A stretch of 63,934 nt of DNA, the filler included, from an uncultured Methanosarcinales archaeon (lineage in GTDB: Archaea; Nanobdellota; Nanobdellia; Woesearchaeales; BS150m-G63): the NCBI GenBank assembly GCA_964630685.1. It is 4 parts of 4 records of this genome, joined end to end, with 100 filler letters (N's around TTAATTAATTAA, not from the genome) between each part and the next. Parts side by side here need not be neighbours in the genome. Positions count along the whole stretch, not along the records: positions 8,986 to 37,534 come from CAZVVW010000011.1; 3 more parts are not named here. One strand, 5' to 3'. Below are positions 30,001 through 33,000 of this stretch, piece after piece. How positions within the stretch are numbered: the stretch's first letter is position 1; each line of letters opens with the position of its first letter. The position numbers are program-made.

Positions 30001-33000
30001 AGTCATCTCCAAGATAGTGGGTATATAAAGTTTTCTATTTTTTAGGATTATCTAGTAGTGACAATTGAGGGGTTTTGATATATGAAAGATTTTATAAATA
30101 AAGGGGGTTTTATTTTTTCAATGAAAATTTTAGCTTTTGTGGATTTGCATGGTTCTTTGACTGCTCTGAAAGAGATTAAACGAAAAGCAAAGAAGGTGGA
30201 TGTAGTTGTTTGTGCTGGAGATCTGACTGTGTTTGAAGCAGATATTGAATTTTTAATAGATGAATTGAGCAAGGTTGGAAAAGATGTTATTATGGTGCAT
30301 GGAAATCATGAAGACGATGTTTATATGAGGGAATTATGTAAACCTTACAAGAATATTCATTTTATCCATAAGAAAAAGAAAGTGATTGGTGGTGTGATGT
30401 TTTTAGGATATGGTGGAAAAGGATTTTCCATTGAAGATGAAGAATTTGATAAACTCGCCAAAAAGTTTAAGAAGTGGATTGAAAAAAGTGATGTGGAAAA
30501 AGTCGTGTTGGTGAGTCATGCCCCTCCTTATGGCACTAAATTGGATAAACTTAGTGGAGATTTTGTGGGTAATCTGTCTCTGAAAGAATTTATAGTTAAA
30601 ATGGAAACTCATCTGCTGGTTTGTGGGCATTTGCATGAAACTGCAGGCAGAAAAGATGAAGTTGAAGGCACTTTGATGATTAATCCTGGACCAAAAGGAA
30701 AAATTGTAGAAGTTTAACTGGTTTAATGTGGGTGGTTAATTAAAATTTCATTATTCTATCTTTGAAATCTTTTTTCATCAACAATAGTACTCTGCTTTCT
30801 TTTTGCTCATCAATGATTTTATAGTTTAAATGTTTGCAGAGCTCTTGTGCGAATTCTTTTACTTCTTCGTGTCTTGGCATATTTTTTTGTTCAAGACGTT
30901 CTCTGCTGGAGCCAACCCACATGTAAGATTTTGCTTCAACAAAATGAGGATCTGCCAATTTAATTAATTCTGCATATTTCTCTGGTTGTTCCATATTTAA
31001 TCCTTTAATTAATGTAAGTCTAATGCAAGTTCTTGTTTTTTGTTTTAATTTTTTTAGTGCTTTTAGTGAGCTAAGTAGGTTTTCCCAACTTGCAGAGGTT
31101 AGGGGTTTACAGATTTTATTGAATGATAATTTTGTTGGGGCGCTTACTGAAACATATAGTTGGGTTGGTGGCTCAATTTTTTCTAATTTTTTAGGGAATT
31201 GGCCATTAGTTACAATAAAAGTTGAACAGTTTTGTTTGTGTAAAGTTTTGATTAATTTATTTATTTTTGGGTAAGCCAACACTTCTCCTGTAAGGGATAT
31301 TGCAAAGTTTTTTGGGTTTTGTGCCTGTTCTAGTTTTTCTTTGTTTACTTTTTCATTTCCACCAAAACCTGAAAGAAGTTTTCTTTGTGCTAGAATAGAA
31401 TTCTTTATTATATCTTCTGGTTGGTCTATGTTTTCTACTTGGAAGTTTTTGTGGTCCCTCCAACAATATACACACTCGTTTTGACAGAAATTTAATGCTG
31501 GAGATATCTGACAGCAGAGGTGGCTTTTTATGCCATAGAATTTTTGTTTATAGCACACTCCTTGGTCTTTTAATGATTTTTTTGTCCAAGAGCAAATCTT
31601 ACAGGCAGAATGTTGTCCTGTTAATTCATATTGTTGCTTTTCTAAGTGTTTTCTAAATTCTTTTATGTTGGTTATTGTTTTCATTTTTTTGGTAAGTGGT
31701 CCTTGAGCAAAAAATATGCTGCTGGAATAAACATCAAGATGCAAAGATATTGGCCTATGCTTAATCCGAAATAGTAGTTTGGTGAAAACCTATAAAATTC
31801 TATTATGAATCTAAAAAGGCCGTACAATAAAATGAAATGCCAGAAGAGGAATCCTGGTTTGTGTTTCTTTTTTGATTGAAATAATAGGATTGAGAAAATT
31901 AGGAGGTTTTTGAGTGCTTCATAAATTTGCGATGGGTGTCTGAATCCAGGTATGTTTTGGAATTTTACTGCCCATGGCAGGTTTGTGATGTGACCAAACA
32001 GTTCTCCGTTGATGAAATTTGCTATTCTGCCGAAAAAGAGGAATATTGCTCCTGGTATTGCTATAAGGTCTGCTAATTTATAGAAGTTGAGCTTTATTTT
32101 TTTTGCGAATAAATAAGTTGTTACGATTATGGCTATCAATGCTCCGTGGAATGCCATTCCACCTCTCCACACTGCAAAGATTTGTAGAGGATTATGTAAG
32201 TAGTATGATGGGTTATATACAAATACGTGAAAGAGTCTTCCTCCAAGCATTACCCCTATAACTAGGAAAAGGATATAATCGTATAACTGTTCTTTTGTTA
32301 AAGGTAATTTTTTGTGTTTTATTAGATAGTTTAAATAGAAAAATACTGCGATAAAGCTGAGTACATAAATTAAACCATAGTACCTTATTTCTAGTGTCCC
32401 TATTTGAAGAAGGGTTGGATCTATGTTGTGAATAAACATAGAATGTTAGAAACAAATGGGTTATATAAAATTATTGTGTTTTAAGGGTTGTGATAGTATT
32501 AATAAATTGGTTTTCCTGGCACAAAATGATGTTTGATACACCTTGCTTCATAATTATCTTTTGCACCGATTAATTTTATTGGGCTGTTGTAGGGTGCAGG
32601 TTCTTGGCCCATTAAACGCTGTGTTCTTGTGGCGTCTTTTCCACAAGTTTTTTTGTTTAACTCATAAGTGCAGATTGCAGTTAATCTTTCAAGATAATCT
32701 GCTTTTGCTAAAAGCTCTCCCATGTGTTTGTTTGAATTGTTGAAAGGGAATGGTTCTCCCCTAAAATCAAGGTCTAGTCCTGCTAAGATTATTCTTTTTC
32801 CTTGATTTCTTATGTATTCTGAAAAAGGAATTATTAAATCATCCAGAAACTGAACTTCGTCTATTATTATTGTGTCTGTTTCTTTTTTGAGTTTTTGATC
32901 TATATCTGAAATGTAAAGTATTGGTTCTGCTGGCATGAATAATTTATCGTGAGATGCTAAATCATTTTCGCTGTACCTTTTATCTTCTCCATATTTGAAA

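What a model noticed while it worked through the whole genome (the two positions that open the first line are those of the whole stretch)
31681..32439. An archaeon with the bacterial lipoprotein pathway: bona fide Lgt and LspA genes plus a dozen lipobox proteins
This Woesearchaeales genome encodes full-length, catalytically intact homologues of both bacterial lipoprotein-maturation enzymes: prolipoprotein diacylglyceryl transferase Lgt (g00780, C11:22696-23454, 252 aa) and lipoprotein signal peptidase II LspA (g00832, C14:6858-7313, 151 aa). A third gene, g00019 (C1:16117-16725, 202 aa), belongs to the family of the lipoprotein intramolecular transacylase Lit, which makes lyso-form lipoproteins in some Firmicutes, so the whole route Lgt - Lsp - Lit is there. 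Lgt and LspA lie inside contigs between typical archaeal genes (Taw1/thymidine kinase; SMC, eIF-1A, eS8, Sm, eL37), and 12 proteins start with a signal peptide ending in a lipobox cysteine. Rece [...]
Evidence so far: g00780: Pfam LGT 229.8 bits over model 1-238 of 240; NCBIfam equivalog TIGR00544 196.9 bits (cut 118.9); 44.8% identical to Geobacter Lgt over 241 aa. Alignment to E. coli Lgt (PDB 5AZB, E 7e-37) keeps the residues known as essential (recalled from Mao 2016): Y26, H103, D129, R143/N146/E151/G154 (GRIANFINGELFG), Y235/R239/E243/R246 (YGLFRFIIEFYR), RHPSQ(I/L)YE. g00832: Pfam Peptidase_A8 127.4 bits, NCBIfam equivalog TIGR00077 115.9 bits (cut 73.95), 40.6% identical to Moorella LspA; alignment to S. 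aureus LspA (PDB 6RYO, E 2e-19) keeps both catalytic aspartates (NLLDR, FNIADA). Lipobox scan ([K/R] n-region, 12 uncharged residues, [ASTVIGLFM][GAS]C at 15-39): 12 of 939 proteins starting with [...]
(Added by a program. Inside this text positions count along the whole contig: they may not be those of the stretch shown here. "Call 12" and the like, gene names such as g00115 and contig names such as C1 are that model's own, and its searches are not shown. The text may have been shortened before it was handed on; [...] marks where a part breaks off. The agent that wrote the report below was given it as the finding of a first reader that could run no searches.)

Follow-up and report, generated by a model that had tools for sequence, protein, structure and literature searches.

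The report
Bacterial lipoprotein enzymes in an archaeon
This small archaeon, like nearly all sampled members of its order, carries intact genes for the bacterial enzymes that fasten surface proteins to the membrane by a lipid, enzymes that recent papers say archaea lack.

Summary
The ORF at 31681-32439(-) is a full-length Lgt: Pfam 229.9 bits, TIGR00544 196.9 against a cut-off of 118.9, and E 7e-37 to E. coli Lgt. The essential residues are kept. Its stop codon overlaps the start of the archaeal tRNA gene TYW1 (ATGA). The same genome has archaeal rRNA, an intact LspA and a Lit-family protein that keeps the catalytic histidines.

The trait is clade-wide, not a quirk of this genome. Lgt is in 189/201 and LspA in 184/201 genomes of the order. 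In 34 genomes of sister orders, the same 26 carry both. The archaeal lipidation enzyme AliA (DUF63) is in 0/201; in the sister orders it occurs only in 3 genomes that lack Lgt and LspA.

All 56 archaeal Lgts sampled form one group (SH-aLRT 97), which fits a single old acquisition from bacteria. Lipobox cysteines are enriched 9-fold at N-termini, and one lipoprotein family keeps the lipobox in 72/78 homologues.

Published tables list 12-60 predicted lipoproteins and no AliA in 7/7 Woesearchaeota, while the same papers state that no archaeal Lgt or Lsp is known. Database records already carry the name.

The lipid donor is unresolved. The order has no full-length GGGPS, acyltransferases in 48/101 genomes and CarS in 46/101. 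This is a new member of a known kind; interest 0.65.

The parts
31681..32439 (-). lgt: prolipoprotein diacylglyceryl transferase homologue, 252 aa
   Evidence: PF01790 scores 229.9 bits over model 1-238/240. TIGR00544 scores 196.9 bits against a cut-off of 118.9. PDB 5azb gives E 7.4e-37. The residues aligned to E. coli Y26, H103, D129, R143, N146, E151, G154, Y235, R239, E243 and R246 are all kept.
30740..31684 (-). TYW1 (4-demethylwyosine synthase), downstream of lgt in the same operon. The likely start is the ATG at 31684; the listed ORF runs from a TTG at 31744.
   Evidence: TIGR03972 scores 391.5 bits against a cut-off of 317.95. Wyosine_form and Radical_SAM domains are present. The minus-strand sequence reads ...CCAAAAAAATGAAAACA..., so the ATG at 31684-31682 overlaps the lgt TGA at 31683-31681.
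32499..33125 (-). Thymidine kinase, upstream of lgt on the same strand with a 59-nt gap
   Evidence: PF00265 scores 148.3 bits. NF003296 scores 198.9 bits against a cut-off of 183. The intergenic sequence was read.
28064..29986 (-). Candidate substrate: a 640-aa protein of no known family, with a signal peptide ending in a lipobox-like ...AGLTLYSC|GSS (Cys30), 1.7 kb from lgt
   Evidence: It is a hit in both the loose and the strict lipobox scans. It has no Pfam or NCBIfam family. The orthologue in the same-genus relative L023 keeps AGLTLYSCGSS.
33178..34836 (-). Context: a 552-aa membrane-anchored protein with two GILT/DsbA-like thioredoxin-fold domains, first gene of the same-strand run GILT-TK-lgt-TYW1
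   Evidence: PF03227 GILT scores 97.2 bits over 2 stretches, with weaker DSBA and Thioredoxin_4 matches. There is no lipobox cysteine in the N-terminus.

Best explanation
**What it is.** The gene encodes a working bacterial-type prolipoprotein diacylglyceryl transferase in an archaeon. With LspA, and probably a Lit-like transacylase, it forms the lipoprotein-maturation route of this organism and of most of its class.

**Proposed sequence of events.**
1. Precursors with a Sec signal peptide ending in [LVI]-x-[GAS]-C are exported.
2. Lgt moves a glyceryl-lipid from a phosphatidylglycerol-type donor onto the cysteine thiol.
3. LspA, an aspartyl protease, cuts just before the lipidated cysteine.
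4. The Lit-family protein may then shift one chain onto the new amino group.

**What is shown.**
- The genes are present, intact and keep their catalytic residues.
- They are embedded in an archaeal operon.
- Lgt and LspA co-occur across the clade, and the archaeal enzyme AliA is not found where they occur.
- Archaeal Lgts form a single phylogenetic group.
- Lipobox cysteines are enriched and conserved.

**What is inferred.**
- Enzymatic activity.
- That one old transfer from bacteria replaced AliA in the ancestor of these orders.
- The donor lipid.

**My commitment on the donor.** This genome shows no route to make phospholipids of either type, so the lipid is scavenged. I give about 50% to ester-linked diacyl-PG from bacterial neighbours, 30% to archaetidylglycerol, and the rest to both.
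For: **Family membership and residues**
- Lgt and LspA pass Pfam and curated NCBIfam equivalog cut-offs and match solved structures.
- Residues whose mutation inactivates E. coli Lgt (passages of PMC4728403) are kept across 56 archaeal Lgts: R143 56/56, R239 56/56, G154 56/56, D129 55/56, Y26 54/56, N146 54/56, E151 54/56, H103 51/56.
- The LspA aspartates are kept in 9/9 archaeal sequences.

**The genome is archaeal and the gene belongs to it**
- The rRNA operon matches archaeal SSU at 1164.7 bits and archaeal LSU at 1012.6 bits.
- The lgt stop overlaps the TYW1 start as ATGA.
- There is full synteny with a named Woesearchaeota contig of 84 kb.
- Lgt lies on single-contig genomes of 0.74-1.3 Mb from the same class.

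**Distribution**
- Lgt: 189/201 genomes of the order, and 145/152 of the high-quality ones.
- LspA: 184/201. Both are present in 174, by my tally from the two tables.
- Sister orders: 26/34 have Lgt, and the same 26/34 have LspA.
- Controls: 10/10 bacteria and 0/4 archaea have these two families.
- AliA family DUF63: not found in G000 at E<=0.1 and in 0/201 of the order. In sister orders it is in 3/34, all among the 8 that lack Lgt and LspA. It rings in 3 of the 4 control archaea.

**Phylogeny**
- All 56 archaeal Lgts plus one Peribacteria-labelled row form one group, SH-aLRT 97, in a tree of 133 rows.
- In a 58-row bootstrap tree the number of label changes is 2 in the 5-95% range.

**Substrates**
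- Cysteine at +1 after a signal-like h-region: 8 observed against 0.86 expected (binomial p 2.5e-6). That is 12.1% of N-terminal sites against 2.3% (9/390) of internal sites.
- In one lipoprotein family, 72/78 homologues at 27-100% identity keep the lipobox.

**Independent published data** (supplement tables of PMC12462473)
- 7/7 Woesearchaeota genomes have 12-60 SignalP6 lipoproteins and no AliA or AliB.
- 24/25 Pacearchaeota have no AliA.
Against: - No activity, lipid or substrate has been measured for any archaeal Lgt or LspA.
- G000 has no GGGPS, CarS, CdsA, PlsY or CDP-alcohol phosphatidyltransferase, so the donor must come from outside and its nature is unknown.
- Evidence on lipid type across the order points both ways.
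  - For ester lipids: no full-length GGGPS in 101 genomes (best hit 28.1 bits, partial), bacterial-type acyltransferases in 48/101, and a Lit family whose chemistry needs an sn-2 ester in 85/101.
  - For archaeal lipids: full-length CarS-like CDP-archaeol synthase in 46/101.
- Twelve genomes of the order lack Lgt and 17 lack LspA, some of them 95-99% complete. The pathway is therefore dispensable or replaced in some members.
- Only about a dozen candidate substrates were found here, using a home-made pattern rather than a trained predictor.
- The LspA tree is too weak to show one origin: 4 label changes, and well-supported branches force only 1.
Confidence: 0.78

Rival explanations
1. The pathway is the same, but it has been adapted to archaeal lipids. 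Lgt takes the diether (archaeol) glyceryl moiety from archaetidylglycerol scavenged from an archaeal host. The product is the archaeol-thioether anchor reported for haloarchaeal lipoproteins, and Lgt simply stands in for AliA.
For: - The organism is an archaeon.
- A full-length CarS-like CDP-archaeol synthase is in 46/101 genomes of the order. In one relative it is adjacent to a CDP-alcohol phosphatidyltransferase (G028), and in another adjacent to LspA (G036).
- Archaeol attached to the lipobox cysteine is proposed for a haloarchaeal protein (passage of PMC12462473).
Against: - The residues that contact the ester oxygens of the acyl chains in E. coli Lgt (Y26 and R143) are kept in 54/56 and 56/56 archaeal sequences.
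- The Lit family acts on an sn-2 ester (PMC8275575) and is present in 85/101 genomes.
- No full-length GGGPS was found in 101 genomes.
- Glycerolipid acyltransferases are in 48/101 genomes, including G000.
- G000 itself lacks CarS.
- Archaeal lipids have the opposite glycerol stereochemistry, yet the enzyme stays 36-46% identical to bacterial Lgts.
Confidence: 0.3
2. The finding is an artefact. The lgt contig is bacterial DNA binned into an archaeal genome by mistake.
For: - G000 is a draft of 35 contigs.
- Apart from TYW1, contig C11 carries few domain-diagnostic genes.
- Lgt is 36-46% identical to bacterial enzymes.
Against: - The lgt stop overlaps the start of TYW1, a gene of archaea and eukaryotes.
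- The contig is syntenic over seven genes with an 84-kb contig of a named Woesearchaeota genome.
- Estimated contamination is 0%.
- Lgt is present in 189/201 genomes of the order, including single-contig genomes.
- Archaeal Lgts form their own group in the tree.
Confidence: 0.02
3. The genes are real, but they are relics or have moved to another job, for example lipid remodelling unrelated to protein anchoring. On this view the lipobox-like N-termini are ordinary signal peptides.
For: - Only 8-15 candidate substrates were found among 984 ORFs.
- Some near-complete relatives lack one or both genes.
- No expression data exist.
Against: - Catalytic residues are conserved over a clade whose members are only 42-53% identical.
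- Lgt and LspA co-occur exactly in 34 sister-order genomes.
- The lipobox cysteine is enriched 9-fold and is kept in 72/78 homologues of one family while the rest of the N-terminus diverges.
- AliA is absent precisely where Lgt and LspA are present.
Confidence: 0.05

Closest known systems
E. coli Lgt (phosphatidylglycerol:prolipoprotein diacylglyceryl transferase, PDB 5AZB/5AZC)
   Same: It aligns over nearly its full length at E 7.4e-37. The signature motif and the R143/R239/E243/R246 network, Y26, H103 and D129 are all kept (residue roles from PMC4728403). It passes the TIGR00544 equivalog cut-off.
   Different: - The host is an archaeon with no detectable phospholipid synthesis, so the donor lipid is unknown.
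- The protein is shorter, 252 aa against a 300-residue PDB chain.
- It is coupled to TYW1 rather than to a thymidylate gene.
S. aureus / P. aeruginosa LspA (signal peptidase II, PDB 6RYO, 5DIR)
   Same: It matches at E 2.2e-19 and 6e-18. Both catalytic aspartate motifs align, and TIGR00077 scores above its cut-off.
   Different: It is encoded in an archaeal genome between eIF-1A/SMC and a DUF11 surface protein. Globomycin sensitivity and substrate are untested.
Bacillus cereus Lit (lipoprotein intramolecular transacylase, PDB 7B0O)
   Same: PF07314 scores 73.9 bits. The match to 7b0o is E 3.2e-8, with His85, Asp88, Val89, Phe149, His153, Phe157 and Trp162 kept.
   Different: It falls far below the NCBIfam Lit equivalog (34.2 against 400) and just below TIGR01906 (69.0 against 74.8). 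The N-terminal half aligns poorly.
Haloferax volcanii AliA/AliB (arCOG02177/02178, Pfam DUF63), the only archaeal lipoprotein-lipidation components described
   Same: They have the same presumed job: lipidation of lipobox cysteines of exported proteins (PMC12462473).
   Different: - AliA/AliB belong to an unrelated family. No DUF63 was found in G000 or in 201 genomes of the order.
- The two systems are mutually exclusive in the 34 sister-order genomes tested.

Membership tests
Lgt (PF01790 / TIGR00544) | Full-length match above the curated family and equivalog cut-offs | tested here: met
   PF01790 229.9 bits over 1-238/240; TIGR00544 196.9 bits against 118.9
Lgt (PF01790 / TIGR00544) | Signature motif G142-G154 and the residues whose mutation inactivates E. 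coli Lgt (Y26, H103, R143, E151, R239; also E243, R246) | tested here: met
   All are kept in G000. Across 56 archaeal sequences the counts are R143 56, R239 56, Y26 54, E151 54 and H103 51. Residue roles were read in passages of PMC4728403.
Lgt (PF01790 / TIGR00544) | Seven-transmembrane fold with a periplasmic head and arms | not tested
   No structure was predicted. The fold is inferred only from the sequence alignment to 5azb over query residues 5-239.
Lgt (PF01790 / TIGR00544) | Lipobox-bearing substrates encoded in the same genome | tested here: met
   15 loose and 8 strict hits among 984 ORFs. Cys is enriched 9.25-fold. The lipobox is kept in 72/78 homologues of one family.
Lgt (PF01790 / TIGR00544) | Transfer of diacylglyceryl from phosphatidylglycerol to the lipobox cysteine | not testable with these tools
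   This needs complementation or an in vitro assay. A PG source was not found in G000.
LspA (PF01252 / TIGR00077) | Match above the curated cut-offs | tested here: met
   PF01252 127.6 bits; TIGR00077 115.9 bits against 73.95
LspA (PF01252 / TIGR00077) | Two catalytic aspartates | tested here: met
   NLLDR and FNIADA align to NFIDR and FNIADS of 6ryo. D110 and D133 are invariant in 9/9 archaeal sequences. That these two aspartates are the catalytic ones is recalled, not read in a paper here.
Lit (PF07314 / NF051877) | Family and equivalog score | tested here: inconclusive
   PF07314 is met at 73.9 bits against 24. The NF051877 equivalog is not met (34.2 against 400), and TIGR01906 is not met (69.0 against 74.8).
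Lit (PF07314 / NF051877) | Catalytic His85/His153 dyad and the invariant Phe157 | tested here: met
   They are kept in the HMMER alignment to 7b0o. Residue roles come from PMC8275575. I inferred the chain numbering offset of +19 from the HFVDV motif.
AliA/AliB (arCOG02177/02178, Pfam DUF63) | A DUF63 protein in the genome | tested here: not met
   There is no PF01889 match at E<=0.1 in G000 and 0/201 in the order. The control rings in M. jannaschii, H. volcanii and M. acetivorans. The link between AliA and DUF63 comes from labels in the paper's alignment file.

The most novel reading that the evidence does not exclude
The ancestor of the Woesearchaeota/Pacearchaeota orders discarded the archaeal AliA system and took over a complete bacterial lipoprotein module (Lgt, LspA, Lit) in one event. 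These archaea now anchor their surface proteins with ester-linked diacylglycerol taken from bacterial hosts. That would make them an archaeal clade whose envelope biochemistry has partly crossed the lipid divide. The lipoproteins would then be prime candidates for the host-contact proteins of these episymbionts.
Probability: 0.3. Interest if true: 0.85.

Novelty: new member of a known kind. Interest (0 to 1): 0.65.

Why it matters
**A correction to the literature.** Reviews and primary papers on archaeal cell surfaces state that no archaeal homologue of Lgt, Lsp or Lnt has been identified. These include the 2025 study that discovered AliA/AliB and its 2026 follow-up (passages read). They treat this absence as a consequence of the archaeal lipid type. 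Here both enzymes are near-universal in a large archaeal order and in most of its class.

**A gap explained.** The AliA study reported archaeal genomes rich in predicted lipoproteins but lacking AliA/AliB, and proposed further, unknown lipidation pathways. In its own tables Woesearchaeota (7/7) and Pacearchaeota (24/25) are such genomes.

**An open question made testable.** What lipid can a bacterial Lgt attach in an archaeon that makes no lipids of its own? The answer bears on where these uncultured symbionts get their membranes and on who their hosts are. Simple complementation and in vitro assays can address it without culturing the organism.

Tried and rejected
- **Conserved gene neighbourhood.** Only the same-genus relative L023 shares the GILT-TK-lgt-TYW1 order. 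0 of 23 other loci do, so synteny gives no functional clue.
- **Full 133-row careful tree.** The bootstrap tree was not finished after 520 s. I used the quick tree and a 58-row careful tree instead.
- **Reading branch support after re-rooting in Biopython.** This gave 93 where treekit printed 97 for the same tree. I cite treekit's figure. The apparent neighbour group (three Pelagibacterales rows) includes rows flagged for odd composition, so I name no donor.
- **Lipobox PLD-domain protein as a maker of PG by head-group exchange.** This is G000:C10:20219-21145. NCBIfam places it nearer NucT nucleases (60 bits) than cardiolipin synthases (25 bits), so I dropped the idea.
- **Records titled 'uncultured Methanosarcinales archaeon' that carry Lgt or LspA.** Four such genomes are 0.9-1.3 Mb and none has McrA, 0/4. 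I do not read them as methanogens.
- **The search of earlier findings** returned nothing for this genome.
- **The paper search 'lgt'+'woesearchaeota'** returned only 'lateral gene transfer'.
- **eS8, Sm and eL37 near LspA** were not found in the 14 kb examined.
- **LspA tree.** Archaeal rows cluster, but one origin is neither shown nor excluded.
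Full report
**1. The observation**

The ORF at window 31681-32439 (minus strand, 252 aa) is a full-length Lgt.
- Pfam PF01790 matches at 229.9 bits over model positions 1-238 of 240.
- The NCBIfam equivalog TIGR00544 scores 196.9 bits against a cut-off of 118.9.
- phmmer against all PDB chains finds E. coli Lgt (5azb) at E 7.4e-37.

In that alignment, and in my alignment of 135 Lgts, the window protein keeps Y26, G27, H103, D129, G142, R143, N146, N149, E151, G154, Y235, R239, E243 and R246 (E. coli numbering). I read passages of the structure paper (PMC4728403).

**2. Is it really in an archaeon?**

Window positions 8986-37534 are contig C11 of a 936,502-base, 35-contig genome. 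Its estimated completeness is 96.56% and contamination 0%.

- **rRNA.** The genome's rRNA operon on contig C17 is archaeal under Rfam clan competition: SSU 1164.7 bits and LSU 1012.6 bits.
- **Operon.** On the minus strand the order is a GILT/DsbA-like gene, thymidine kinase, lgt and TYW1. TYW1 scores 391.5 bits on TIGR03972.
- **Coupling.** The sequence ...CCAAAAAAATGAAAACA... shows the lgt TGA (31683-31681) overlapping the TYW1 ATG (31684-31682). This is the usual sign of translational coupling.
- **Synteny.** The whole seven-gene neighbourhood recurs in an 84-kb contig titled 'Candidatus Woesearchaeota archaeon', whose Lgt is 90% identical.

The label Woesearchaeota rests on record titles of relatives and on NCBI names in the protein cluster.

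**3. The partner enzymes**

*LspA.* It lies at G000:C14:6858-7313(-), 151 aa.
- PF01252 scores 127.6 bits, and TIGR00077 scores 115.9 bits against 73.95.
- It matches S. aureus LspA (6ryo) at E 2.2e-19, with NLLDR and FNIADA aligned to NFIDR and FNIADS.
- It sits near RNase HII, SMC and eIF-1A.
- I did not find eS8, Sm or eL37 in the 14 kb I looked at.

*Lit-family protein.* It lies at G000:C1:16117-16725(-), 202 aa.
- It reaches PF07314 at 73.9 bits.
- It scores only 34.2 bits against the 400-bit cut-off of the NCBIfam Lit equivalog, and 69.0 against 74.8 for TIGR01906.
- It does match B. cereus Lit (7b0o) at E 3.2e-8. It keeps His85, Asp88, Val89, Phe149, His153, Phe157 and Trp162, which PMC8275575 names as the catalytic dyad and most conserved residues (passages).

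So Lit holds at family level with an intact active site, not as an equivalog.

**4. It is a clade-wide trait**

| Family | Order of G000 | 34 high-quality genomes of sister orders | Named controls |
|---|---|---|---|
| Lgt (PF01790) | 189/201; 145/152 high-quality | 26/34 | 10/10 bacteria, 0/4 archaea |
| LspA (PF01252) | 184/201; 143/152 high-quality | the same 26/34 | 10/10 bacteria, 0/4 archaea |
| AliA family DUF63 (PF01889) | 0/201; none in G000 at E<=0.1 | 3/34, all among the 8 lacking Lgt and LspA | M. jannaschii, H. volcanii, M. acetivorans |
| Lit family (PF07314) | 85/101 high-quality, 83 over the cut-off | not searched | 1/14 |

- Tallying the two order tables, 174 genomes have both Lgt and LspA, 15 have only Lgt, 10 have only LspA and 2 have neither.
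- The link between AliA and DUF63 comes from labels in the AliA paper's alignment file.
- Four genomes in the order sample are unpublished (G183, G132, G112, G121). All four have Lgt and LspA. Without them the counts are 185/197 and 180/197.
- G112 also counts in the Lit tally and in the acyltransferase tally.

**5. Origin**

One row, L010, comes from unpublished G183. Three loci without a complete ORF were left out (L040, L111, L129).

*Trees.*
- A quick IQ-TREE (LG+G4) put 54 archaeal rows and 3 bacterial rows in one group at SH-aLRT 95. Two of those bacterial rows had the longest branches.
- With those two dropped, all 56 archaeal rows and one Peribacteria-labelled row form one group at SH-aLRT 97.
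- A 58-row tree with ultrafast bootstraps needs 2 label changes in the 5-95% bootstrap range. The Peribacteria row nests among sister-order archaea at 100/96.

*Identities.* The window Lgt is 42-53% identical to other archaeal Lgts and 36-46% identical to bacterial ones.

*Reading.* This fits one old transfer from bacteria followed by vertical descent. The trees are unrooted and I name no donor. The LspA tree (38 archaeal and 51 bacterial rows) clusters the archaea, with 4 label changes against 29 in shuffles, but it does not resolve one origin.

**6. Substrates**

*Scans of G000.* With my own ORF caller (984 genes), a loose PROSITE-like pattern (recalled) finds 15 proteins. A stricter pattern requires an uncharged h-region, [AGS] at -1 and a polar tail. 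As a control, I counted each of the 20 residues at +1.
- Cysteine is seen 8 times against 0.86 expected from composition (9.25-fold, binomial p 2.5e-6).
- It makes up 12.1% of such N-terminal sites against 2.3% (9/390) of the same pattern inside proteins.

*Judgement.* About eleven candidates look convincing by eye, and one strict hit looks spurious. Most have no Pfam family. One carries a PLD/NucT-like domain and one a thioredoxin fold. One candidate lies 1.7 kb from lgt and another 1.8 kb from lspA. That is suggestive but post hoc.

*Conservation in one family.* The 317-aa candidate of a three-gene lipobox cluster on C4 has 78 homologues at E<=1e-5 (27-100% identical), some named Woesearchaeota or Nanoarchaeota. 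Of these, 72/78 match the lipobox pattern. Of the six misses:
- three show VNGC, LSGC or FAGC by eye;
- one is truncated to LLAGC;
- two are fragments.

**7. What is in print**

- The 2026 follow-up repeats the statement (passage).

In the AliA paper's supplementary tables, which I read directly:

| Lineage | Result |
|---|---|
| Woesearchaeota | 7/7 genomes have 12-60 SignalP6 lipoproteins (28-51% of secreted proteins), with AliA = 0 and AliB = 0 |
| Pacearchaeota | 24/25 have AliA = 0 |
| Aenigmarchaeota | 7/7 have AliA |
| Nanohaloarchaea | 3/3 have AliA |
| Micrarchaeota | 11/13 have AliA |
| Diapherotrites | 4/5 have AliA |

*Searches for a report of archaeal Lgt or Lsp.*
- 'lgt'+'dpann'+'lipoprotein': 5 papers, none reports one.
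- 'prolipoprotein diacylglyceryl transferase'+'woesearchae': 0 papers.
- 'lipoprotein signal peptidase'+'dpann': only the AliA paper and its preprint.
- A six-term search: 25 of 334 papers listed, and none pairs an enzyme term with a taxon term.
- The DPANN protein-family paper PMC8204110 does not contain 'lipoprotein' in its main text.

*Limits.* The library holds only open-licence PMC papers and bioRxiv preprints. Supplements of DPANN genomics papers were not searched. NCBI records of close relatives already bear the automatic name 'prolipoprotein diacylglyceryl transferase [Candidatus Woesearchaeota archaeon]'. The gap is therefore in the literature, not in the databases.

**8. The donor lipid: the open part**

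*G000 and four complete relatives.* G000 shows none of GGGPS, CarS, CdsA, PlsY or CDP-alcohol phosphatidyltransferase. It does have one PlsB-like acyltransferase (PF01553, 82 bits). This sits in a cluster with a PIG-L deacetylase and a GT4 glycosyltransferase.

*Across 101 high-quality genomes of the order.*
- No full-length GGGPS: 16 weak partial hits, best 28.1 bits.
- Acyltransferases of a family seen in 10/10 control bacteria and 0/4 control archaea: 48/101.
- Full-length CarS-like proteins: 46/101.
- By my tally, 20 genomes have both the acyltransferase and CarS.

*Arguments for an ester-linked diacyl donor.*
- The Lit reaction needs an sn-2 ester.
- Y26 and R143 contact ester oxygens in E. 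coli Lgt.
- PMC8204110 notes murein-binding proteins, and bacterial fatty-acid genes in some of these archaea.

*Argument for archaeal lipids.* CarS is present in nearly half of the order.

I put about 50% on diacyl-PG, 30% on archaetidylglycerol and the rest on both.

**9. Verdict**

The finding grows from one genome to a class-level pattern that complements AliA. It is a new member of a known kind. Its value lies in correcting a repeated statement and in opening a direct test of which lipids these symbiotic archaea use.

Noticed in passing
window 56083-56207 and 57366-57461 (outside contig C11): Rfam calls tRNAs of 125 and 96 bases, longer than a plain tRNA. These are probably intron-bearing archaeal tRNAs. 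ARAGORN misses the first and gives the second an odd 4-base anticodon.
   Followed up: no
G000:C3:5283-8317 (L164:284-3318): A same-strand cluster of a GT4 glycosyltransferase, a PIG-L family deacetylase and a PlsB-like acyltransferase. The glycosyltransferase's second-best NCBIfam hit is GlcNAc-phosphatidylglycerol synthase (96.5 bits against 480). The cluster looks like a route that decorates or re-acylates a scavenged glycerolipid.
   Followed up: partly
G036:C18:9815-10730; G038:C21; G009:C7; G050:C15: In relatives, the CarS-like gene sits directly next to LspA (G036). In three other genomes it lies within a few kb of PF01553 acyltransferase genes. This suggests hybrid lipid-handling clusters.
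   Followed up: no
L042 (contig titled uncultured Candidatus Peribacteria bacterium), 5992-6774: Its Lgt nests inside the archaeal group next to sister-order archaea, with support 97/80 and 100/96. This is either an archaeon-to-CPR transfer or a mis-binned contig.
   Followed up: partly
window 33178-34836: A 552-aa membrane-anchored protein with two GILT/DsbA-like thioredoxin-fold domains and an acidic double-disulfide repeat. It is the first gene of the run that holds lgt and may be an extracytoplasmic disulfide oxidoreductase.
   Followed up: no
window 10150-13650 and 16632-21140: Two very large proteins (1166 and 1502 aa) with right-handed beta-helix/NosD repeats, likely surface proteins.
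   Followed up: no
window 32499-33125 and 36628-37434: lgt follows thymidine kinase, and a thymidylate kinase lies 4 kb away. In E. coli, lgt is translationally coupled to thymidylate synthase (title of a reference seen). This may be a coincidence.
   Followed up: no
G101, G160, G204, G082, G014 and others (21 tables): Some genomes of the order and class carry 2-5 Lgt matches, including weak ones of 75-135 bits. Paralogues or second acquisitions therefore exist. G004's top-scoring copy (L003) branched apart from most archaeal rows in the first tree.
   Followed up: partly
window 27622-28035: A 137-aa ORF with a MraZ-type domain (43.4 bits). This family is best known from bacterial division clusters.
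   Followed up: no
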